Shown here in pieces: positions 13,119 to 56,860 of a DNA stretch of 64,000 nt. Source of the DNA: a virus; IMG/VR virus record IMGVR_UViG_3300025065_000001, positions 16,545 to 80,544 of that record; one strand, given 5' to 3'. How positions within the stretch are numbered: the stretch's first letter is position 1; the number at the start of each line of letters is the position of its first letter. The position numbers and the translations under genes are program-made. The notes under the pieces are model-generated. The model was not told the DNA's origin. It worked only from the letters and a program-made list of their open reading frames with translations, and ran no database searches.

Positions 13119-13155
13119 TTAATAAAATATTTATTAATTAATTTAAACAATATTA

Positions 13156-13184
13156 TTGACAATAAAATTGTGTGTCCGTAATAT
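13156..13184 (+). promoter_or_regulatory. Sigma70-type promoter
   Basis: TTGACA (13156-61), 17-bp spacer, TAATAT (13179-84). An AT-only palindrome lies upstream at 13115-13141. Confidence 0.75.
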
Positions 13185-13190
13185 TGACCT

Positions 13191-13269
13191 CGGTTAGTAG
13201 TCCAAGTGGCTCCTAATTATCGTCAATTTCCAAATCAACGCCTCAGCCTTGCTGGGGTGTTCTGTTTTT
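13191..13269 (+). ncRNA. Putative trans-acting antisense sRNA (~80 nt)
   Basis: Lies between promoter and terminator; contains ATCGTCAATTTCCAAAT, the reverse complement of the start-associated box of 27 genes. Confidence 0.7.
13237..13269 (+). terminator. Intrinsic terminator of the putative sRNA
   Basis: AACGCCTCAGC-CTT-GCTGGGGTGTT, an 11-bp stem with 2 G.U pairs (valid only on the + strand), then CTGTTTTT. Confidence 0.7.
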
Positions 13270-13338
13270 GGGCGTTTGAAAAATATTCAATCTATTCCTC
13301 TTTTCGGTATACTAAGCGAAAATTGAGGGAAATTGACG

Positions 13339-13827
13339 ATGAAAGAACTTTCACAAGAAATTCAGTCTCAACGGCATTCGCTGACCCCTGAAGACTTAAC
13401 CACCTATCTAGAACTCATTATCGAAGACCCTGATGGTCAGCCGGTTATCATTCGTCTTACGGATAGAGAAACCCGTGAGTGGAAAGGTACCACATGGGTG
13501 CATTCTCCTTTTAAAGTGACTGGGGTTGGAAACAAATCCAGCGGTGAGAAAAATCGTCCTAGTTTATCCCTCCCCAATGAAGGGGGGCTTTATAGTTACT
13601 ACTTGAACCAAGGTCTTTTAGAGGACTCCGTGGTAACCCGTTATAAAGCTCTCCCGCATGAGAAGGGGGGAACCCTCACTTCCAAACACGTATTTTATGT
13701 TTCACATGCCAGTAATATCAGTGCCTCTATCCTAACTCTTCAGTTGCGAAGGCTTTCTGACGGTAACAAAACAAAATTCCCACCCCGCAGATATGTGCAG
13801 CCAGAGTTTAGAACGGTAATCGTATGA
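13339..13827 (+). CDS. Minor tail protein (lambda L-like)
   Basis: Position; WKGTTW...PFKVTG...RPSLSLPN pattern. Confidence 0.6.
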   Translation: MKELSQEIQSQRHSLTPEDLTTYLELIIEDPDGQPVIIRLTDRETREWKGTTWVHSPFKVTGVGNKSSGEKNRPSLSLPNEGGLYSYYLNQGLLEDSVVTRYKALPHEKGGTLTSKHVFYVSHASNISASILTLQLRRLSDGNKTKFPPRRYVQPEFRTVIV

Positions 13828-15391: not shown

Positions 15392-15423
15392 AATCTGGCT
15401 AAATTGACGATATTGGGGCTTCC

Positions 15424-27414: not shown

Positions 27415-27487
27415 TCATTTACAGTCTTGCTTAAGGGTAGTATGCTTGATTGAAAATTAGGCTAATTGACGATACTTAGGCGGCAAG

Positions 27488-27881: not shown

Positions 27882-28340
27882 ATGGACTCAACAACCTTGC
27901 TAGCACTCTTAGGGGTGATGGCCACTATTAGTGGTGTAGCGGTAACAATCGCGCTATTTATCATATCGGGAATAAAATCTGATATGAAAAGCGCACATGA
28001 AAGTTTTTCACAAAGTAATAAAAACCTGTGGGAAACCGTAAATAAAAATCACGCCACGGCAAACTCCTTAGCCACAAAAATCGCGGGAGAACTCGCAGCA
28101 TTCAAAGAGCACGTTGCATTAGCTCACCCGAGGGAAGAACGCGTTAATGAAAAGCTTGAATTCAACAAGCAGCATATCGACCAAGCCCTCTCAGGTATAA
28201 ACCACCGTCTTTCGAAACTGGAATCTGACCAAAGTATCGTCATTCAGCATATGACCCAGATCAGTAACCAGCAATCACAAACAATGTCCTATTTAAAAGA
28301 ACTGGTTAAAAACAAAAATTCTGAGGCTAAAAATGGCTAA
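27882..28340 (+). CDS. Putative holin/lysis membrane protein
   Basis: N-terminal TM helix plus coiled coil, directly before the endolysin. Confidence 0.45.
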   Translation: MDSTTLLALLGVMATISGVAVTIALFIISGIKSDMKSAHESFSQSNKNLWETVNKNHATANSLATKIAGELAAFKEHVALAHPREERVNEKLEFNKQHIDQALSGINHRLSKLESDQSIVIQHMTQISNQQSQTMSYLKELVKNKNSEAKNG

Positions 28341-28902
28341 CTACTCCGCAGACCCAAGAGTTCAGGCTTATATCGCGCAAATTGTGAAACTAGAAGCGGG
28401 GTACGTAGATAATCCTCGCGATAAAGGTGGGCCTACGAACTGGGGAATTACTGAAAAGGTTGCACGCGCTCACGGTTACACTGGCGCTATGAAAGATATG
28501 CCGCAATCCAAAGCCCGAGAAATCTACTTACAGACCTATTGGTTTGGCCCTCGTATCTCGGAGCTGGCTTCGGTAAGCCCTGAGATAGCGTGGGAGGTGT
28601 TTGAAGCTGGGGTGAATCTTGGTACCGGTACAGGGATTAAGTTTCTGCAGCGTGCGTTGAATGCCTTTAATAAGATGCAAACCATCTACATCGATATAAA
28701 GGTGGATGGGATATTTGGTAGCAAAACTCTAAAGGCCCTGCAGCTTTACTTTGCTTATCGTAAAGGCTTGGCCGAACCGGTTCTATTGAAAGCGCTCAAT
28801 TGTTTACAAGGGGCCTATTATTTAGAACTGGCCGAATCCCGAGAGACAGATGAAACGTTTGTCTTTGGTTGGATAAATAAGCGCATAGCGCTAAGAGATT
28901 GA
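28333..28902 (+). CDS. Endolysin, glycoside hydrolase family 108 with peptidoglycan-binding domain
   Basis: EAGYVDNPRDKGGPTNWGIT; LQRALN...VDGIFGSKT; FVFGWINKRI. Confidence 0.9.
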   Translation: MANYSADPRVQAYIAQIVKLEAGYVDNPRDKGGPTNWGITEKVARAHGYTGAMKDMPQSKAREIYLQTYWFGPRISELASVSPEIAWEVFEAGVNLGTGTGIKFLQRALNAFNKMQTIYIDIKVDGIFGSKTLKALQLYFAYRKGLAEPVLLKALNCLQGAYYLELAESRETDETFVFGWINKRIALRD

Positions 28903-28921
28903 CGATAATTGGAGCTACAAC

Positions 28922-29266
28922 ATGAAAGCCGCATTAATACTTCTTTTTAGAAACTTTGGTGCCGCATTGCTGACACGACATATGGTTTTGTTGTTGTTAA
29001 GGCTAGCGGCAAAATTCACTGAAAACAAAATCGACGACAATGTTGTTGGTTTGATCGACGCAGGGTTTAAAAACGATATCAACTCAATGCAGTGGTATAT
29101 TGAAGCGATATCTGACCAAATAGAAATCGAGCTGAGGAAAAGGCGAGAGGCTGAAGAAGCTGAGGCCGAGGCCAAGAGGAAGAAAGCTGAAGCTGAGAAA
29201 CCTGTACCTAGACCTGATAACCCTGTCCCCGAACCTGAACCTCGAGAACCAACTAAACAAAAGTAA
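28922..29266 (+). CDS. Lysis-module protein with Pro-rich tail
   Basis: Hydrophobic N-terminus, TENKIDD, charged/Pro-rich C-terminus. Confidence 0.5.
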   Translation: MKAALILLFRNFGAALLTRHMVLLLLRLAAKFTENKIDDNVVGLIDAGFKNDINSMQWYIEAISDQIEIELRKRREAEEAEAEAKRKKAEAEKPVPRPDNPVPEPEPREPTKQK

Positions 29267-29310: not shown

Positions 29311-29345
29311 ATGGGTTTCACTTAATTTGTGTCACGAAACTAAAC

Positions 29346-29549
29346 TCGTGTCGTACTCGTGTCATTTCGTGTCCCTTTCGTGTCACCTTTCGGTACTGGT
29401 AAAAGAGGTAAGTTGTTGATTTGTACCCTCTTTGTACCTTCTTGTTTGGTGGAGCTGGCGGGATTTGAACCCGCGTCGATTATTTCCTAAATAGCTGATA
29501 AGCTTGGTTTTTTATTCGTGCCATTGGTATCTCGTGCCGCACTCGTGTC
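29346..29549. mobile_element. attP region with integrase arm-type repeats and IHF site
   Basis: TCGTGTC at 29346, 29357, 29367 and 29378; TCGTG(C/T)C at 29516, 29532 and 29543; IHF consensus AATCAACAACTTA on - at 29409-29421. Confidence 0.75.
29447..29477 (-). other. att core: 3' end of tmRNA (ssrA fragment)
   Basis: GACGCGGGTTCAAATCCCGCCAGCTCCACCA, the T-arm/acceptor end typical of gammaproteobacterial tmRNA; no full gene present. Confidence 0.85.
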
Positions 29550-30725
29550 ATTTTGGATTTTTTTCTCGTAATCCTCGATGAATTTACCGTAGTGTCGAAA
29601 TAGCATTTCTGGCGAAGAGTGGCCCATCCAATTTGCCAACTGCCACAAGTTAATTCCCTCACTAATATGTCGAGTCGCGAAAGTGTGACGCATTTGATAC
29701 GGGTACCGGTATCTTACTTTTGCAGCGGTAAGAATTCGACTCCATTTGTGTTTACGAAATGAGTCTGGGTTTATCCGGTTCAACTCCCCCTCTGGCAGTT
29801 CCATTCCAAACTTTAAGTTTTTAGGGAACACAAAACCGCGACCCAGATAGGAAAGTTCTCTTTGCCGGTTAAGGGCATTCATCGCGCTTTCATTTAAAGG
29901 TATGGCACGTTTACCGGCTTTTGATTTTGGACCCTTGATCTCGTTATGCACAATGGCCGCTTTTACGACTAAGGTGTTGTGAATGAAATCGACTTCGTTC
30001 CACTTAAGCGCCGACCATTCACTAGGCCGCATCCCCGTATTGAAAACCAGCTCAACAATATTTAGCTCTTCCGGTCTGCAATGCTCATAGATTGCTTCGA
30101 CTTCTTGTGGTGTGAACGGGTCGATATCATCGTGGCCACCGTCTAAATCTACCTTGTTATCTTTTTCTACGTAGTTAGAAAGCTTCACACCATCAATCGG
30201 ATTGGTTGGTACCAGTCCGTCAGTCACAGCTTCGGCCAGTGCAGTACGTAAAAAGCTGAACTTGTTTCGCAGTGTTTTAGGTGAGTTCCCAGACTTGAGA
30301 ACAAAGCTTTTCAAAACTTGCGGCGAGAGCTCGGTCACAGGGATAGGGTGGAGTTCCTTAACCGAGGTCTTCAGTTTTTCGTAGCCTTTAATAGTAGAAG
30401 GTGAGAGCCCCCGTTTCTTGACGCTCTCAATATATTCCTCCAAGTACGCTTCAACAGTCTTGCCCCACGCTACAGCGCCACCGAATATTTTTAGCTTTGG
30501 TGAGCTGGGGAAGTAGTCCGCGTATCGGAAAGTTTCACGCTCAATTTTATTTAATATCTCACCGCGTAAGTTACCCGCGTATTTGATATTTGATTTGTTG
30601 ACTGGAACCTTAAGGAGTTCGCGGCAGCGAACCCCTTTATATTCGAAGTTAATTTGAATACGGTCTTCTTTGGCCCCAGGCCTAATAGTTACCCCGCGAG
30701 GGAGTTGCCCCCATTTCTTATCCAT
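29487..30725 (-). CDS. int: Tyrosine integrase
   Basis: TGMRPSE, RHTFAT, MGH and HYG catalytic motifs; N-terminal arm-binding domain; adjacent to att. Confidence 0.95.
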   Translation of the reverse strand: MDKKWGQLPRGVTIRPGAKEDRIQINFEYKGVRCRELLKVPVNKSNIKYAGNLRGEILNKIERETFRYADYFPSSPKLKIFGGAVAWGKTVEAYLEEYIESVKKRGLSPSTIKGYEKLKTSVKELHPIPVTELSPQVLKSFVLKSGNSPKTLRNKFSFLRTALAEAVTDGLVPTNPIDGVKLSNYVEKDNKVDLDGGHDDIDPFTPQEVEAIYEHCRPEELNIVELVFNTGMRPSEWSALKWNEVDFIHNTLVVKAAIVHNEIKGPKSKAGKRAIPLNESAMNALNRQRELSYLGRGFVFPKNLKFGMELPEGELNRINPDSFRKHKWSRILTAAKVRYRYPYQMRHTFATRHISEGINLWQLANWMGHSSPEMLFRHYGKFIEDYEKKIQNDTSAARDTNGTNKKPSLSAI

Positions 30726-35282: not shown

Positions 35283-35789
35283 TTATTTTGTTTTATTTAG
35301 AGTTAATACTCTTTTAGGTTTATCACCTTTATCATCTGATGTTGACTGGCGTGTGCCGCGTCCCACTTTCTGATTTATGATAATCCCTTGCTTCTTGTTC
35401 TTACGTCGAGAGCGTAAGTACATAGAATGTAGTTCAACCATTCTCTTACGAGCATGGTCTGCTTCGGATTCGGTTACTCTACCGTCAGGCTTTCCCCAGA
35501 GGTTAAAGCGCTGGGCACCAGTACGAATACGATTGAGGTATTTTATAGAATTAACGTGAAAGCCTATCGCATCGTATAGTTCTCTTGAGCTGACTTTCTT
35601 AGGAGAAATAACCGCACGAAGTTGCTCATAAATATCCCTACTTAACGGTTTGTTAGTTAAGATTCGGAATTTATTTTTACGACAATAGGTGACCACCCAA
35701 AGCCAGCAATGGATAGGTTTTTCAAATTGTAATTTTTTAGAATTATATTTAAGGCTTACACCTTCAATTCCAAAAGTGGCGTTATCCAT
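35283..35789 (-). CDS. ProQ/FinO-domain RNA chaperone
   Basis: KPLSRDIYEQL...SSRELYDAIGFHVNSIKYLNRIRTGAQRFNLWGKPDGRVTESEADHARKRM follows the FinO-domain pattern (PL..GI...L; Y L; G..R.DL.G...G.V....A.HA); basic C-terminal tail. Confidence 0.8.
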   Translation of the reverse strand: MDNATFGIEGVSLKYNSKKLQFEKPIHCWLWVVTYCRKNKFRILTNKPLSRDIYEQLRAVISPKKVSSRELYDAIGFHVNSIKYLNRIRTGAQRFNLWGKPDGRVTESEADHARKRMVELHSMYLRSRRKNKKQGIIINQKVGRGTRQSTSDDKGDKPKRVLTLNKTK

Positions 35790-35813
35790 GCTCAACTCGT
35801 CAATTCATATTTT

Positions 35814-45431: not shown

Positions 45432-45587
45432 TTAAGCTGGTAGTTGCTGTTTCATTTCTTCAACATCGGCCATAGCATCACCACAACAATCTCTAAGGCA
45501 TGGCTTCCAATGTCGTTCCGCGAATTCTTGAACAATCTCTAGGGCCTTCGCAACTTCCTCAAGAGACTCTTTAGTTTCCTTTGACAT
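45432..45587 (-). CDS. Small hypothetical protein (51 aa, not in the ORF track)
   Basis: Hand-translated MSKETKESLEEVAKALEIVQEF...KQQLPA; fills the operon gap. Confidence 0.5.
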   Translation of the reverse strand: MSKETKESLEEVAKALEIVQEFAERHWKPCLRDCCGDAMADVEEMKQQLPA

Positions 45588-45589
45588 AA

Positions 45590-45748
45590 TTAAAAGCCTT
45601 TCGAAGGATCATACACACCCCTAGGCTCTCGGCTCGGGAGGTCTTTTAAACGCATCCCTGCGGTACTATCACGCTTCGTAAAACTTGTAACTGGTAAGCG
45701 GTTCTCTTTGTTCTGAGACTCTTTAAAACGGTTGAATTCTTTACCCAT
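45590..45748 (-). CDS. Small hypothetical protein
   Basis: ATG after AAGGAG in the junction repeat. Confidence 0.5.
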   Translation of the reverse strand: MGKEFNRFKESQNKENRLPVTSFTKRDSTAGMRLKDLPSREPRGVYDPSKGF

Positions 45749-46028
45749 GCTCGTGCTCCTTGCGTAGTTGTTCAAGCATAGGTTTGAGCCCTATAACCTG
45801 GTCACCTTCAACCACCAATCGATACAGCATGGCAATATTCTGAGTGATTTCTTGTTTCAAATTTGAGTAAGACTGACGCCCTTCAGCGCAATGAACGGCA
45901 TCCTTAACAACCTCGCCACTTTCTTCTGCAACTTTGCAAACAACGTAATTTGGCTGTGGAAATTTTGACATTGCCTTTTCAGCCTCGGTAACCGCATCAA
46001 GAATTATTTGTTCAAACAGTTTATTCAC
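45741..46028 (-). CDS. Small MazG-like protein
   Basis: KVAEESGEVVKDA...EITQ. Confidence 0.55.
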   Translation of the reverse strand: MNKLFEQIILDAVTEAEKAMSKFPQPNYVVCKVAEESGEVVKDAVHCAEGRQSYSNLKQEITQNIAMLYRLVVEGDQVIGLKPMLEQLRKEHEHG

Positions 46029-46389
46029 TGGCTTGCTCCTTGCGTAGTTGTTCTATTTCCCAATTGCAAGCATCGGAGACAACATCATAACTAGTCTCGT
46101 AAGCAACCTTCTTCAGCGCTTCAATCTTCTTCTCTATGGCGAATTTTTTTAAAAGCTTTTCACCTAAAGCCCAAGTTGATTCTCGCCCTGTAGCAAGTGT
46201 TAACATTGACAGCTCATCTTCGAGTTCACTGACTCGCTCCTTAGCCTTTGACAACCTATTAGGCATATCTACGAGGCTACTCCTATCGAACAAATTGGAA
46301 CAAAAATGAGTTACAGCCTTTATTTGTGATGCTGTCAGGTCTTCAGGGAGAAAATTCATCATTTCCTCAATAAATTTAGCTTTGTCCAT
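46021..46389 (-). CDS. Hypothetical protein
   Basis: Coupled ORF ending QLRKEQASE. Confidence 0.6.
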   Translation of the reverse strand: MDKAKFIEEMMNFLPEDLTASQIKAVTHFCSNLFDRSSLVDMPNRLSKAKERVSELEDELSMLTLATGRESTWALGEKLLKKFAIEKKIEALKKVAYETSYDVVSDACNWEIEQLRKEQASE

Positions 46390-46648
46390 GCGCTTTCTCC
46401 TTACGCGTCAGTTTCTTTTGCCACACGAAGGGATGCCAGTCTCTCGAGTAAGCAAAGTGGGTTCTCATGGGGTAACTGAAGGGGTCTCGGATTGAAAACC
46501 GACCCAGCGAATAAAGCTTCCAAGTGCCGTACTGGCGCAAATTGTTTAAAAGCTGTACGTTAAAGCGCCAAAACTTACTAGATTTATTGTCGATAATTCG
46601 AGGTCTAAACTTCATAATGTAAAATATATAAATTGCTCTAACCATCAC
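46376..46648 (-). CDS. Hypothetical basic protein
   Basis: Start follows the junction repeat; exact start uncertain. Confidence 0.45.
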   Translation of the reverse strand: MMVRAIYIFYIMKFRPRIIDNKSSKFWRFNVQLLNNLRQYGTWKLYSLGRFSIRDPFSYPMRTHFAYSRDWHPFVWQKKLTRKEKAHGQS

Positions 46649-46929
46649 TCTTGCTCCTTGCGTAGTTGTGGAGCCCATTGGGCCTTAGGCTTATGTTCAG
46701 TTAACTTCCCACTTATATTCTGCTCATACAAAACAAAAACAGTATTATTGTGCTTTGCGCTTTGCCCCGTCTCTTTTGCTTCATCTATTGCGCCTTGACA
46801 AGTGCTGCCTGTAATATTTACGTCAATACCGTAATGAGAAAAAAGTGCGTTGCTTATAACCTCTAAAACTTCGCTTTTTCCTGAGCCAGTTTTTCCGCTT
46901 ACCGTTATTTCTATAATGTTACTTTTCAT
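46645..46929 (-). CDS. Small protein with P-loop-like motif
   Basis: ITVSGKTGSGKS; ends QLRKEQE. Confidence 0.55.
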   Translation of the reverse strand: MKSNIIEITVSGKTGSGKSEVLEVISNALFSHYGIDVNITGSTCQGAIDEAKETGQSAKHNNTVFVLYEQNISGKLTEHKPKAQWAPQLRKEQE

Positions 46930-46931
46930 CA

Positions 46932-47105
46932 CTATTGCTCCAACTCTTGAACCCATGAATCCATCACATCCGAGCGGTACTCATTAATTAAGTCCTTCTG
47001 TTCCTGCTCCGACATTGCATCCCATTGCTCTTTGGTAACGTCTAAGTCCGTACTACACTCAGAACCCTCGGCGTTTGTTCTTACAAAGAAGTGCATGGTT
47101 TTCAT
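46932..47105 (-). CDS. Small acidic protein (57 aa, not in the ORF track)
   Basis: Hand-translated MKTMHFFVRTNAEGSECSTDL...WVQELEQ. Confidence 0.55.
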   Translation of the reverse strand: MKTMHFFVRTNAEGSECSTDLDVTKEQWDAMSEQEQKDLINEYRSDVMDSWVQELEQ

Positions 47106-47109
47106 AATC

Positions 47110-47316
47110 CTATACCCTCATCCAAGTTTGATAATCGGCTTCAGTAAGCCTTTGTTCTTGCTCTGCTTCTCGCTTCTCATGTTGAGCTAAGTCGCTCTTA
47201 TGCTCAGAACAAGCGAACGTACTAGCAAAGCCATTCTCACGATAAACCGCTCTTTCAGTTTTAGGGGCGCAGAACGAGCACCACGGGCCGAGCTGATTAG
47301 CTTTTAGTTTTTTCAT
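47110..47316 (-). CDS. Small Cys/His protein
   Basis: WCSFC...ACSEH; ATG after AAGGAG. Confidence 0.55.
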   Translation of the reverse strand: MKKLKANQLGPWCSFCAPKTERAVYRENGFASTFACSEHKSDLAQHEKREAEQEQRLTEADYQTWMRV

Positions 47317-51414: not shown

Positions 51415-52893
51415 TTAAGCGGCTTGCATTATTGGGGTTACAAGGTCAACCGTTACACCTTCTTCAACTTGTGTACGGTCATTCGATTTATTCAGCAGTT
51501 TCTTAGCTACGTGAAGCTCTAGGCCACCACGATAGACAAGCAAGGTAATTCGCACGGCTTTCTCTCGAACACCCCGAAGCGCTCTTCGATAGTTCTGGAT
51601 GAATGTCGTGTCTTGCCAGTCGAAAGAGGTAAATATCATGTGGTCTACATGACCCCAGTTAAAACCAACACCAGCTACTTCAGGGCTACAAATCAACACA
51701 TCAATTTCACCTTGGCGAAACTTGTGGTCTATTTCTCCGCGTCGGCTGGTTATGCTGCCGTTTATATACTCAGCACGTAGCCCCATTTTTTCGCATATCT
51801 TCTTATAGCGTGCATGGGCCGCAACAACCGTTTCGAAGATAATCAAAGGTTCTTCGTTGAACTTGTGCGTCTCAAGGTGCTGCATAAGGTGTGCGTCTTT
51901 ACCATCAGAGTCGTTATGCTTTAAACCGTACTCCTCAGGGCATTGCATGATCTTAAAGCATCGCTGCAGCGTTACCGCTTCGTTCTCAGCTTCTAAGAAA
52001 TCATCTTCTAGTTCAGTAATACCTTTTTGCTTAATGTCATTGAACGCTTTTGCCTGAGACGGTGACATAGTGCACATTTCGGCAACGATGATTTTCTTTT
52101 CCTTGCCGTAAGCTTGCTCATATGTAACCCGACGACTGTGCTTATCGATAAGCGCTTGCAACCTGTCATGATTCTTCCACATGAAAGGCTTTCCATACTC
52201 ATCCAACATGGCGTGCCACATCATGAAGTTGTTGTACGTTGGATAGTACAGGGGATTAATTAACTTCAAACCTGGATACGCTGAGCACAACCGGCCATTG
52301 ATAAAGGTTCCCGTCATGATCAACAAGTCACCCCCGCGCTTCATGTACTGGTACATTTTGTGGGTGCGCTGGGGACCAATGAACGTATTGGGTTTTCTGT
52401 AATGAGGTTCGCCATGGGTGCTAAAGCCCAAGTGCCACTCATCACCACATAGGTGATAGGTGTCAGGGTATCGTTCAACAATCTCCTTGTGATTGTTAGC
52501 AAAGGCATCGAACCCCATCATAAATACTTTGGTTTCTTTGTTCGCGAACTGTTTAGCGCGTTGAGCTGGCGTACCATCTATCACCATAATTTGGTGAGGC
52601 TCTAAGTCTGACCACAACAATAATTCATGGTAGTTCTTTACGAGCAGAGATTTAGGCATCGTCCAAATAACGCGGCCATCTTTAGAGTGATGGTAAACCC
52701 AGAGGCAACCGGCCGGAGTTTTACCGGTACCGGCCTCGGATAAGTCCATAGAACGAGAGTTCGCCAGTGAAAAACCTAAATGCTCGATTTGATAGGGGCG
52801 CAATGACAGTGAATCTCTTCTGTCATACACATCATTCATATCGAACCAGATTTCGTTAGCTGGCTGCTTTGGTATCTTTTGAATGCTGGTCAT
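51415..52893 (-). CDS. SF2 (SNF2/DEXH-like) helicase
   Basis: LRPYQ, AGTGKT, DEWH, MTGT, VAGVGFN. Confidence 0.85.
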   Translation of the reverse strand: MTSIQKIPKQPANEIWFDMNDVYDRRDSLSLRPYQIEHLGFSLANSRSMDLSEAGTGKTPAGCLWVYHHSKDGRVIWTMPKSLLVKNYHELLLWSDLEPHQIMVIDGTPAQRAKQFANKETKVFMMGFDAFANNHKEIVERYPDTYHLCGDEWHLGFSTHGEPHYRKPNTFIGPQRTHKMYQYMKRGGDLLIMTGTFINGRLCSAYPGLKLINPLYYPTYNNFMMWHAMLDEYGKPFMWKNHDRLQALIDKHSRRVTYEQAYGKEKKIIVAEMCTMSPSQAKAFNDIKQKGITELEDDFLEAENEAVTLQRCFKIMQCPEEYGLKHNDSDGKDAHLMQHLETHKFNEEPLIIFETVVAAHARYKKICEKMGLRAEYINGSITSRRGEIDHKFRQGEIDVLICSPEVAGVGFNWGHVDHMIFTSFDWQDTTFIQNYRRALRGVREKAVRITLLVYRGGLELHVAKKLLNKSNDRTQVEEGVTVDLVTPIMQAA

Positions 52894-53197
52894 AATGGTT
52901 AGTTAATTTCATCAAATTAAGTAAATTAGTCGTGGCCTGTTGACTGGCCCCCTTCTCAAGTAACGTTACAATTTCTTGTAAATCGTTTCTCAGGTCTGGG
53001 AACACTCTCTCGATTGGGAACTCAGATTGAAGAAGTATCTCGAGTAAAAATTCCATTGGGACCTCTTTAGTCCCAGAAAGAGCTAAAGAAACTTTGGCTT
53101 GATTGCTACCTAGCGAGTCAGCAAGATCTTTCTGTTTGAGGCCTTTTTCTCGTATCGCATTCTTCAAAAGCGCGAGTCTTTCTGAAAATTTCAACAT
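52856..53197 (-). CDS. XRE-family HTH regulator
   Basis: IREKGLKQKDLADSLGSNQAKVSLALSG. Confidence 0.75.
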   Translation of the reverse strand: MLKFSERLALLKNAIREKGLKQKDLADSLGSNQAKVSLALSGTKEVPMEFLLEILLQSEFPIERVFPDLRNDLQEIVTLLEKGASQQATTNLLNLMKLTNHYDQHSKDTKAAS

Positions 53198-53227
53198 GGC
53201 TATCGTGTCTCTTATCGTCAATTATTC

Positions 53228-56539: not shown

Positions 56540-56860
56540 GTGTCTAAGAAAATTGACGATAATATAGAACCACCATGGGAGCTAGAGCGCCGTAGGCGAA
56601 TAGCTCGAAAATTTAAAAATATGCGCCAGAATTATCGATTGACGCAAGAAGAACTCGCTATTGCTGCGGACGTTCACAAGAATACTATTTCAAATGCTGA
56701 GCGATACGGCAAAATCTCCACTGAAGAATTCTACAAATATCAACAAATTGCAAAACGCGCTCACATGAAGAAGGGACTCGGTGCGGTAGTGAGTAAAATT
56801 ACCTTATCGGATATCCCATTCTCGGATTTTAAAAGATTCTTAGCGACGTTTTGGGAGTAA
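56540..56860 (+). CDS. XRE-family HTH regulator
   Basis: MRQNYRLTQEELAIAADVHKNTISNAERYG; likely GTG start at 56540 after GGAG. Confidence 0.8.
   Translation: MSKKIDDNIEPPWELERRRRIARKFKNMRQNYRLTQEELAIAADVHKNTISNAERYGKISTEEFYKYQQIAKRAHMKKGLGAVVSKITLSDIPFSDFKRFLATFWE

What the first reader, a model, noticed from the sequence alone, without database searches (positions are those of the whole stretch)
28895..28918. Boxes set back from the start codon extend their complementarity to the sRNA
Seen: the sRNA complement reads GAAATTGACGATAATTAGGAGCCAC. Where the box does not include the ATG, the downstream bases keep matching. 28895 GAGATTGACGATAATT-GGAGCTAC pairs fully (Watson-Crick or G.U) with one bulge and covers the SD. 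27464 AATTGACGATACTTAGGCGGCA matches 19/22. 15401 AAATTGACGATATTGGGGCT (gene J) and 56550 AAATTGACGATAAT (early HTH codons) extend partly. Inference: similarity beyond the 9-mer core to this single locus is what base-pairing predicts. Lysis-module genes and J may be the most tightly controlled targets.
Basis: partly seen in the sequence, partly recalled or inferred. Interest (0 to 1): 0.72.

Follow-up and report, generated by a model that had tools for sequence, protein, structure and literature searches.

The report
Extended sRNA pairing at set-back boxes
In a temperate marine phage, several gene starts whose conserved 'box' lies 12-17 bases upstream of the start codon keep matching the phage's own small antisense RNA across their ribosome-binding site, more than comparable gene starts do, which supports RNA-RNA pairing as the way one small RNA controls about 40 phage genes.

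Summary
The sequences are exactly as described. The window is 64 kb of an 80.5-kb temperate siphophage with 41 sense copies of ATTGACGAT at gene starts. One antisense copy lies in a promoter/terminator-bounded ~80-nt sRNA (13190-13270), and the phage encodes a ProQ/FinO-domain protein.

- **Set-back boxes:** eight boxes are set back from the start codon (class II).
- **Control test:** I kept each core and swapped its downstream part for 70 natural SD-containing gene starts of the same phage. Sites 28898 and 27465 beat all 70 controls. J (15403) and 56552 are marginal (3/70). Sites -3732, 53214 and -14504 are not better than controls.
- **Ranking:** 28895-28918 is the best non-self target in the genome.
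- **Replication:** in a sister clade (69% aa identity), with its own sRNA and different flank sequences, four of five set-back sites show the same property. It is absent from Pseudoalteromonas phage KB12-38.
- **Flank switch:** class I sites pair through the sRNA's 3' flank. Class II sites pair through its 5'-hairpin arm, which carries an anti-SD (CUCC).

The base-pairing inference is supported. "Lysis genes and J most tightly controlled" holds only for 28898. No experiment shows the sRNA or any repression. The scan noted the same idea on the overlapping window of this genome (e1-6061506).

The parts
13156..13184 (+). sigma-70-type promoter of the sRNA (TTGACA, 17 nt, TAATAT)
   Evidence: A promoter of this type also stands before the sRNA in relatives L001-L008, L021-L023 and in KB12-38.
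13190..13270 (+). Candidate ~80-nt sRNA: 5' hairpin, single-stranded anti-core, terminator hairpin plus U run. The ends are predicted, not mapped.
   Evidence: Folds. Consensus structure of 8 sequences from 4 clades has 5 compensatory pairs. No ORF on the minus strand. No Rfam family.
13206..13218 (+). 3' arm of the sRNA 5' hairpin, GUGGCUCCUAAUU. It carries an anti-SD (CUCC) and is the part that pairs with the downstream extension of set-back boxes.
13219..13227 (+). Anti-core AUCGUCAAU, predicted unpaired.
   Evidence: unpaired probability about 0.8-1.0.
13237..13272 (+). Intrinsic terminator (11-pair stem, loop 3, U run).
   Evidence: The stem is kept with different sequences in the other clades.
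28895..28918 (+). Class II target with the longest complementarity (22 WC + 2 G.U + 1 bulge). It covers the SD of gene 28922-29266 and overlaps the endolysin stop codon TGA 28900-28902.
   Evidence: ddG -30.3, 0/70 controls as good. Best non-self duplex in the genome-wide scan. Identical in three close relatives at 82-94% regional DNA identity.
28922..29266 (+). Target gene: 114-aa protein with a hydrophobic N-terminus and a charged, Pro-rich tail. No family match. It is the last gene before attP.
27464..27485 (+). Class II target, 19/22 identity to the sRNA complement, upstream of ATG 27488.
   Evidence: ddG -24.5, 0/70 controls as good. Conserved in close relatives.
15401..15420 (+). Class II box before the J-like tail gene (GTG 15424). 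The extension is weak: one bulge, then 5 WC + 2 G.U.
   Evidence: 3/70 controls as good. J identity from phrog_31. ATTGGGGCT is kept in close relatives. The sister-clade J site gave 0/70.
56550..56574 (+). Box inside the first codons of a repressor-like HTH gene (56540-56860). Downstream identity to the sRNA complement is 9/13.
53214..53222 (-). Set-back box before HTH regulator gene 52856-53188. No extension beyond the core.
28333..28902 (+). Endolysin (GH108 + PG_binding_3).
35283..35795 (-). ProQ/FinO-domain protein, the likely chaperone partner of the sRNA.
   Evidence: PF04352, E=7.5e-13. Present in 4/4 relatives that are at least 90% complete and annotated in KB12-38.

Best explanation
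The site at 28895-28918 and the other set-back boxes are a second architecture of target (class II) for the phage's multi-target antisense sRNA at 13190-13270.

- **Class I (33 sites).** The box abuts the start codon (GGAA-ATTGACG-ATG). The sRNA pairs through its single-stranded anti-core plus its 3' flank (UUUCCAAAU), which covers the SD and the start.
- **Class II.** The box lies 12-17 nt upstream of the start and the real SD follows it. Pairing starts at the same anti-core and then runs the other way, into the 3' arm of the sRNA's 5' hairpin (GGCUCCUAAUU). That arm carries an anti-SD, so one duplex again covers the SD.
- **Expected result.** Translation is blocked, probably with help from the phage's FinO-domain protein bound to the terminator hairpin.

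Shown: the complementarity, that it exceeds SD-containing controls, the switch of flank between classes, and conservation of the property in a sister clade.

Inferred: that the sRNA exists as a discrete RNA, that pairing happens in vivo, that it represses translation, and that it acts in lysogeny.
For: - **Chimeric controls:** 28898 and 27465 beat 70/70 natural SD-containing controls; J and 56552 beat 67/70.
- **Sister clade** (69% aa identity; L021/L023 = G001/G002), with its own sRNA: J 0/70, terminase-side site 0/70, 27465 equivalent 0/70, -14504 equivalent 1/70. The flank sequences differ from ours: J is ATTAGGAAC vs ATTGGGGCT, and the 27465 equivalent is AATTGGGTGACG vs ACTTAGGCGGCA.
- **Flank switch:** upstream identity 6.0/11 in class I vs 3.75/11 in class II (p=0.002). 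Downstream identity 3.1/13 vs 5.5/13 (p=0.001).
- **Ranking:** 28885-28920 is the best non-self duplex in a scan of both strands of the genome.
- **sRNA unit:** promoter and terminator. The architecture is kept in four clades with compensatory stem changes. The anti-core is unpaired.
- **Covariation:** the sister-clade sRNA has G where ours has A. Its boxes read C (18) or T (21) at that position; ours read T in 41/41. KB12-38 has a 2-nt deletion in both its box (GGATTGAC, 26 sense copies) and its sRNA.
- **Chaperone gene:** a FinO-domain gene is present.
- **RNA-level constraint:** at 28898 the box and extension are kept at nucleotide level although they code for the endolysin C-terminus in the sister clade and are non-coding in ours.
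Against: - No experiment or strand-specific RNA data show the sRNA. Metatranscriptome contigs only show RNA from about 13207 onwards that runs through the terminator into the next gene.
- The extension must invade a conserved 5' hairpin of the sRNA.
- Sites 53214, -14504 and -7156 show no extension, and -3732 is only suggestive.
- AATT(A/T)GGAG is the phage's generic SD context, so part of the match is expected anyway.
- KB12-38 has the sRNA and boxes but no class II extension.
- In the sister clade the 28898 equivalent has a degenerate core and is only 7/70.
- Covariation of all copies would also occur if a protein read the box.
Confidence: 0.6

Rival explanations
1. Generic gene-start context. 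The downstream match only reflects that any set-back box must be followed by an SD, and this phage's SD context (AATT[A/T]GGA[G/A]) happens to equal the sequence next to the core in the sRNA complement. There is no selection for pairing.
For: The same AATT(A/T)GGA context precedes most class I cores. Three to four of eight sites are no better than controls. J is only marginal. KB12-38 shows no extension.
Against: Natural SD-containing gene starts placed at the same spacing pair worse than 28898 and 27465 in 70/70 cases, and worse than four of five sister-clade sites in 69-70 of 70. Matches continue 3' of the SD (CTAC vs CCAC at 28898). Anchored 9/13 identity occurs at two sites.
Confidence: 0.18
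2. Relic of common descent. The sRNA gene arose by inverted duplication of a class II leader such as the one at 28898, and the flank similarity is leftover homology without function.
For: Site 28898 and the sRNA complement are 22/24 identical with one indel. A 1-mismatch copy of the box (ATTGACAAT) even forms the sRNA's own -35 region.
Against: The property, rather than the sequence, is kept in a clade at 69% protein identity, and other sites (J, 27465 equivalent) reach it with different bases. The sRNA 5' arm is invariant across both clades except for one G.U-neutral change.
Confidence: 0.07
3. Protein-read motif. The box and its flanks are a DNA or RNA site for a phage protein, and the copy at 13206-13230 is just one more site in reverse orientation. 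Flank similarity then reflects a longer footprint.
For: All copies co-vary between clades, as a change in protein specificity would also produce. Stoperator-like arrays in cluster A mycobacteriophages are also orientation-biased; they are mentioned in PMC3203893, and the orientation bias is my own knowledge.
Against: - The box has a fixed register with the start codon.
- The single reverse copy sits inside a conserved promoter-hairpin-terminator unit, with the motif in the unpaired stretch.
- Class I and class II share only the core but each matches a different flank of the same locus.
- The C/T dimorphism occurs only where the sRNA base is G.
- The motif is not palindromic.
Confidence: 0.1

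Closest known systems
RocR sRNA with the FinO-domain chaperone RocC (Legionella pneumophila); PMC9977716, PMC9674577
   Same: A trans-encoded sRNA with a terminator hairpin bound by a FinO-domain protein. It pairs with a shared complementary sequence in the 5' regions of several mRNAs and represses their translation. Here there is an sRNA with a terminator and U tail, a FinO-domain gene, and a shared box at the targets.
   Different: RocR has four chromosomal targets; here there are about 40 targets, all in the phage's own genome. Two pairing registers using opposite flanks of one seed are not described for RocR in the text read. RNA-protein binding is untested here.
FinP/FinO of F-like plasmids and Inc/FopA (PMC9977716)
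   Same: An antisense RNA of a mobile element plus a FinO-domain protein blocks the ribosome-binding region of a target mRNA.
   Different: Those RNAs are cis-encoded, fully complementary to one target, and have a single register.
Start-associated sequences (SAS/ESAS) of Cluster K mycobacteriophages (PMC3203893)
   Same: An asymmetric conserved motif containing the SD, within a few nt of many start codons, in one orientation, with a single reverse-oriented copy per genome in several phages. The reader of the motif is unknown, 'either RNA or protein'.
   Different: The sequence is unrelated (GGGATAGGAGCCC). SAS are restricted to non-structural genes. No sRNA or FinO protein has been linked to them. 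Here the motif is in both arms of the genome.
Antisense immunity RNAs of phages P1/P7 (c4) and P4 (CI) (own knowledge, not checked here)
   Same: A small phage RNA pairs with repeated target sites in phage transcripts to keep lytic functions off in the lysogen.
   Different: Those RNAs act on two or three sites within one operon and are processed from it. Here there are about 40 dispersed gene starts, a separate promoter/terminator unit, and two target architectures.

Membership tests
FinO/ProQ-dependent trans-acting sRNA regulon (RocR/RocC type) | sRNA ending in an intrinsic terminator hairpin with a 3' U tail | tested here: met
   Predicted terminator 13237-13261 plus U run. The hairpin is kept with compensatory changes in four clades.
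FinO/ProQ-dependent trans-acting sRNA regulon (RocR/RocC type) | FinO/ProQ-domain protein encoded with it | tested here: met
   PF04352, E=7.5e-13, at 35283-35795. Present in 4/4 complete relatives and annotated in KB12-38.
FinO/ProQ-dependent trans-acting sRNA regulon (RocR/RocC type) | Accessible sRNA segment complementary to the translation-initiation regions of several mRNAs | tested here: met
   The unpaired anti-core is complementary to 41 sense boxes. Flank pairing exceeds controls.
FinO/ProQ-dependent trans-acting sRNA regulon (RocR/RocC type) | The sRNA accumulates as a discrete transcript | tested here: inconclusive
   Metatranscriptome contigs cover 13207-13475 at higher depth than their neighbours but bridge the terminator. 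Contigs cannot show ends or strand.
FinO/ProQ-dependent trans-acting sRNA regulon (RocR/RocC type) | The protein binds and stabilises the sRNA; the targets are repressed | not testable with these tools
   Needs RIP/CLIP, EMSA and reporter assays.
Start-associated sequences (Cluster K mycobacteriophages) | Conserved asymmetric motif within a few nt of start codons, in one orientation | tested here: met
   definition from PMC3203893.
Start-associated sequences (Cluster K mycobacteriophages) | Motif GGGATAGGAGCCC, restricted to the non-structural half of the genome | tested here: not met
   The motif here is GGA(A/G)ATTGACGAT and occurs on both arms, including capsid and tail genes.
Phage antisense immunity RNAs (P1 c4, P4 CI) | RNA processed from, and acting within, its own immunity operon (own knowledge) | tested here: not met
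   The unit has its own promoter and terminator between tail genes. The targets are dispersed over the genome.

The most novel reading that the evidence does not exclude
One phage sRNA reads two architectures of gene start with one seed and two alternative flanks: the 3' single strand for box-at-ATG genes, and the anti-SD arm of its own 5' hairpin for box-then-SD genes. This grades silencing gene by gene, with the post-endolysin/lysis leaders bound most strongly. It would form an RNA-based, genome-wide immunity layer of a temperate phage, one that could also act on superinfecting relatives carrying the same box. The single reverse copy of the SAS motif in Cluster K mycobacteriophages might be the same kind of RNA.
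Probability: 0.3. Interest if true: 0.82.

Novelty: new variant of a known kind. Interest (0 to 1): 0.62.

Why it matters
Flank complementarity that goes beyond the shared core, and that switches side with the position of the box, is a sequence-only observation that favours RNA-RNA pairing over a protein-read motif. If true, it gives the larger system (one sRNA, a FinO-type chaperone, about 40 self-targets) a testable mechanism. It predicts which leaders are bound most strongly and defines compensatory-mutation pairs (28907-28918 with 13206-13218) for a clean test. It also suggests how to approach the unexplained start-associated sequences of other phages.

Tried and rejected
- **Promoter reading of the box (TTGACG as a -35).** No enrichment of -10 hexamers 16-18 nt downstream: 3 of 42 vs 2.4 expected. 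Rejected.
- **Known RNA families and tRNAs.** None in the window.
- **DNA similarity to deposited phages.** No match.
- **More distant kin.** Acinetobacter phage Mystique and Xylophilus phage Lumi show no sRNA unit at the syntenic position. The system is limited to this marine clade plus KB12-38.
- **KB12-38.** It has the sRNA and boxes, but its set-back site 39384 is not special, so the two-register design is clade-specific.
- **RNAduplex on 69-nt targets.** It gave unrealistic long-range loops (second column). I relied on cofold ddG and on a 35-nt vs 36-nt scan instead.
- **Ungapped identity.** It under-scores 28898 because of the bulge.
- **Metatranscriptome contigs.** They cannot show a discrete sRNA, its ends or its strand. 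The parts without cover are not evidence.
- **ARAGORN on the att region.** It calls nothing, because only the 3' end of the tmRNA-like gene is present.
- **G.U-asymmetry test on the flanks.** Not pursued, because GGAG vs GGAA is confounded with SD strength.

Full report
**What the window is.** The window is bases 16545-80544 of a single-contig virus record of 80,544 bases.
- It has a siphovirus-like late arm on the plus strand and an early arm on the minus strand. The late arm includes a J-like tail gene and a GH108 endolysin at 28333-28902.
- It carries a tyrosine integrase at 29487-30725, so it is temperate.
- Its nearest deposited relative by protein is Pseudoalteromonas phage KB12-38, at 37% identity for the minor tail protein. 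There is no DNA-level match to deposited phages.

**The box and the sRNA, on which the finding depends.**
- ATTGACGAT occurs 28 times in the window against 0.45 expected, and 42 times in the whole genome.
- Forty-one copies lie in the sense of the local genes. In 33 of them the box runs into the start codon (GGA[A/G]-ATTGACG-ATG, or with 2-3 extra bases).
- The one antisense copy (13219-13227) lies in the gap between two plus-strand tail genes. There is no ORF on the minus strand there.
- On the plus strand a TTGACA-17-TAATAT promoter (13156-13184) and an 11-pair terminator with a U run (13237-13272) bound a unit of about 80 nt.
- Its fold is a 5' hairpin, an unpaired stretch holding the anti-core, and the terminator hairpin.
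- The same unit, at the same syntenic place, occurs in four groups: eight close relatives, a clade at 69% protein identity (L021-L023), a 42% relative (L024), and KB12-38.
- The consensus fold keeps both hairpins, with five compensatory pairs.

**The box and the anti-box change together.**
- KB12-38 has 26 sense copies of GGATTGAC. Its sRNA reads the complement, with two bases missing on both sides relative to ours.
- The 69% clade's sRNA has G where ours has A. Its boxes read C (18 copies) or T (21 copies) at that position. Ours read T in all 41.
- That is what G-C/G.U versus A-U pairing allows.

**Chaperone gene.** A ProQ/FinO-domain protein is encoded at 35283-35795. It is also found in all four relatives that are at least 90% complete and is annotated in KB12-38.

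**The promoter reading fails.** Reading the box as a -35 element is not supported: -10 hexamers are not enriched downstream.

**The observation itself.** All four quoted strings are correct.
- In the whole genome eight boxes are set back from a start codon: 28898, 27465, 15403, 56552 and 53214(-) in the window, and -14504(-), -3732(+) and -7156(-) before it.
- In the seven with a start codon, the distance from the core's end to the start is 12-17 nt. The seventh, 56552, is the exception discussed below.
- At 28895-28918 the target differs from the sRNA complement by two transitions that both keep a G.U pair, and by one bulged sRNA base. The duplex covers the GGAG that serves ATG 28922.

**Is it more than an SD-containing gene start would give?** I called genes crudely, giving 106 genes with 93% of the genome covered. 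The 70 gene starts without a box served as natural SD-containing controls.
- *Chimeric test.* For each set-back site I kept the 20 nt upstream and the core. I replaced everything downstream by each control's own leader at the same spacing. I then computed cofold ddG with the sRNA, which charges for opening the sRNA's 5' hairpin.

| Site | ddG (real) | Controls (mean +- sd) | Controls as good |
|---|---|---|---|
| 28898 | -30.3 | -17.9 +- 3.6 | 0/70 |
| 27465 | -24.5 | -12.8 +- 3.3 | 0/70 |
| 15403 (J) | -22.6 | -14.6 +- 3.5 | 3/70 |
| 56552 | -16.6 | -10.5 +- 3.6 | 3/70 |
| -3732 | -19.3 | -14.5 +- 3.4 | 7/70 |
| 53214 | -13.6 | -13.2 +- 4.3 | no better |
| -14504 | -17.4 | -15.4 +- 3.9 | no better |

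- *Plain identity.* Sites 27465 and 56552 have 9/13 in register. One of 70 controls reaches that, even at its best offset. Site 28898 has the best gapped score of all.
- *Genome-wide scan.* A 35-nt sRNA segment was scanned against every 36-nt window on both strands. It puts 28885-28920 first among non-self sites.
- *Flank switch.* Class I and class II use opposite flanks. Upstream identity is 6.0 vs 3.75 of 11 (permutation p=0.002). Downstream identity is 3.1 vs 5.5 of 13 (p=0.001).

**Independent replicate.** In the 69% clade the sRNA's 5' arm is almost unchanged, but the leaders differ in sequence. Tested with that clade's own sRNA:

| Sister-clade site | Controls as good |
|---|---|
| J | 0/70 |
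| Terminase-side site | 0/70 |
| 27465 equivalent | 0/70 |
| -14504 equivalent | 1/70 |
| 28898 equivalent | 7/70 |

- The 28898 equivalent has a degenerate core (AACGACGAT).
- At 28898 the box and extension are conserved at nucleotide level (GACGATAA.TGGAGCTA). Yet in the sister clade they encode the last six residues of a longer endolysin, while in ours the endolysin stops inside the box. This points to an RNA-level constraint.
- In three close relatives at 82-94% regional identity, both lysis-region leaders are unchanged over the predicted duplex.
- The J leader keeps ATTGGGGCT, while the next bases vary.
- KB12-38 does not show the property. Its sRNA 5' flank has no anti-SD and its set-back site is ordinary.

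**Mechanism proposed.** Pairing would start at the unpaired anti-core.
- For class I leaders it zips 3'-wards over UUUCCAAAU, covering the SD and the first bases of the start codon.
- For class II leaders it zips 5'-wards into GGCUCCUAAUU, the 3' arm of the sRNA's 5' hairpin. The CUCC in that arm mimics an anti-SD, so the SD that follows the box is covered.
- The FinO-domain protein would hold the terminator hairpin and tail, as in RocC-RocR (PMC9674577, PMC9977716), and help strand exchange.
- The unit has its own sigma-70 promoter and terminator inside a late operon of a temperate phage. I infer from this that it is expressed in the lysogen and silences leaky or incoming box-bearing mRNAs.
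- All of this beyond the complementarity is inference.

**RNA data.** The only RNA data are seawater metatranscriptome contigs.
- In three runs they begin at 13207, 13208 and 13239 and run through the terminator to 13400-13475. Their depth is 6-11, against 2-4 nearby.
- This is a weak hint that the promoter is active and that readthrough occurs. It is not evidence for a discrete sRNA.

**What does not hold.**
- 'Lysis-module genes and J may be the most tightly controlled' is true only for 28898. In the common ranking, 27465 is about 7th and J about 13th of 41 sense boxes.
- Only the endolysin is an identified lysis gene. The proteins behind 27465 and 28898 have no family match, though each has a hydrophobic segment.
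- The 56552 box lies in codons 4-7 of the repressor-like HTH gene if GTG 56540 (SD GGAG) is the start.

**Comparison and novelty.**
- The closest known system by mechanism is RocR/RocC. The closest by appearance is the start-associated sequences of Cluster K mycobacteriophages. Their reader is unknown, and several of those genomes carry one reverse-oriented copy (PMC3203893).
- Searches of the held literature found no description of this phage group's motif or sRNA.
- Earlier notes of this scan reached the same overall reading of the sRNA (e1-6061504) and raised the same two-class idea on the overlapping window (e1-6061506). My tests were run independently of them.
- I rate the finding a new variant of a known kind. 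It is a supporting but informative facet of a larger, more interesting system.

Noticed in passing
window 29447-29478 and 29330-29400: The reverse complement of 29447-29478 reads like the 3' end (T arm plus acceptor, ...CCACCA) of a tmRNA/tRNA-type gene (own knowledge). It lies next to the integrase and is preceded by about six CGTGTC repeats that look like arm-type integrase sites. This is a likely attP in an ssrA-like gene. The same sequence sits at the end of the sister-clade contig (L032).
   Followed up: partly
window 45432-47316 (minus strand): A second start-associated motif, CAACTACGCAAGGAGCA, precedes at least four consecutive small genes (starts near 45748, 46028, 46645, 47316). None of them carries the ATTGACGAT box.
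   Followed up: no
window 56310, 62092, 63029, 30938, 59841, 58788 (minus strand) and others: Many early class I boxes carry a longer conserved upstream part, TTAATTAACTT(TTA)AAATTTGGAA. It is often preceded by a GGGGGAATGTTCTCCCC palindrome. TTAACTTT resembles the T7 gene 10 'epsilon' enhancer (own knowledge). KB12-38 has an analogous ATTAAACTAAAACT.
   Followed up: no
G001 (L025-L028), whole record: In the sister clade the strong (C, G-C pair) and weak (T, G.U pair) box variants are unevenly spread. Late plus-strand genes have 8 C and 2 T. Early minus-strand genes have 10 C and 19 T. This hints at graded pairing strength by module.
   Followed up: partly
window 13155-13163: The sRNA's own -35 region, ATTGACAAT, is a one-mismatch copy of the box in sense orientation.
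   Followed up: no
7156 bases before the window start (minus strand); KB12-38 41504 (plus strand): A box with a perfect upstream flank (CAATTTGGAAATTGACGAT) but no start codon behind it. KB12-38 has a similar start-less box 53 nt before a normal one, and it ranks among the best predicted partners of that phage's sRNA.
   Followed up: partly
window 13207-13475: Seawater metatranscriptome contigs from three runs start at 13207, 13208 and 13239 and bridge the sRNA terminator into the minor tail gene. The terminated sRNA may therefore coexist with a readthrough leader whose anti-box could pair in cis with the box at 13332.
   Followed up: partly
window 35796-35804 (minus strand): The leader of the ProQ/FinO-domain gene carries a one-mismatch box (ATTGACGAG) 6 nt before its ATG. 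This may be feedback on the chaperone.
   Followed up: no
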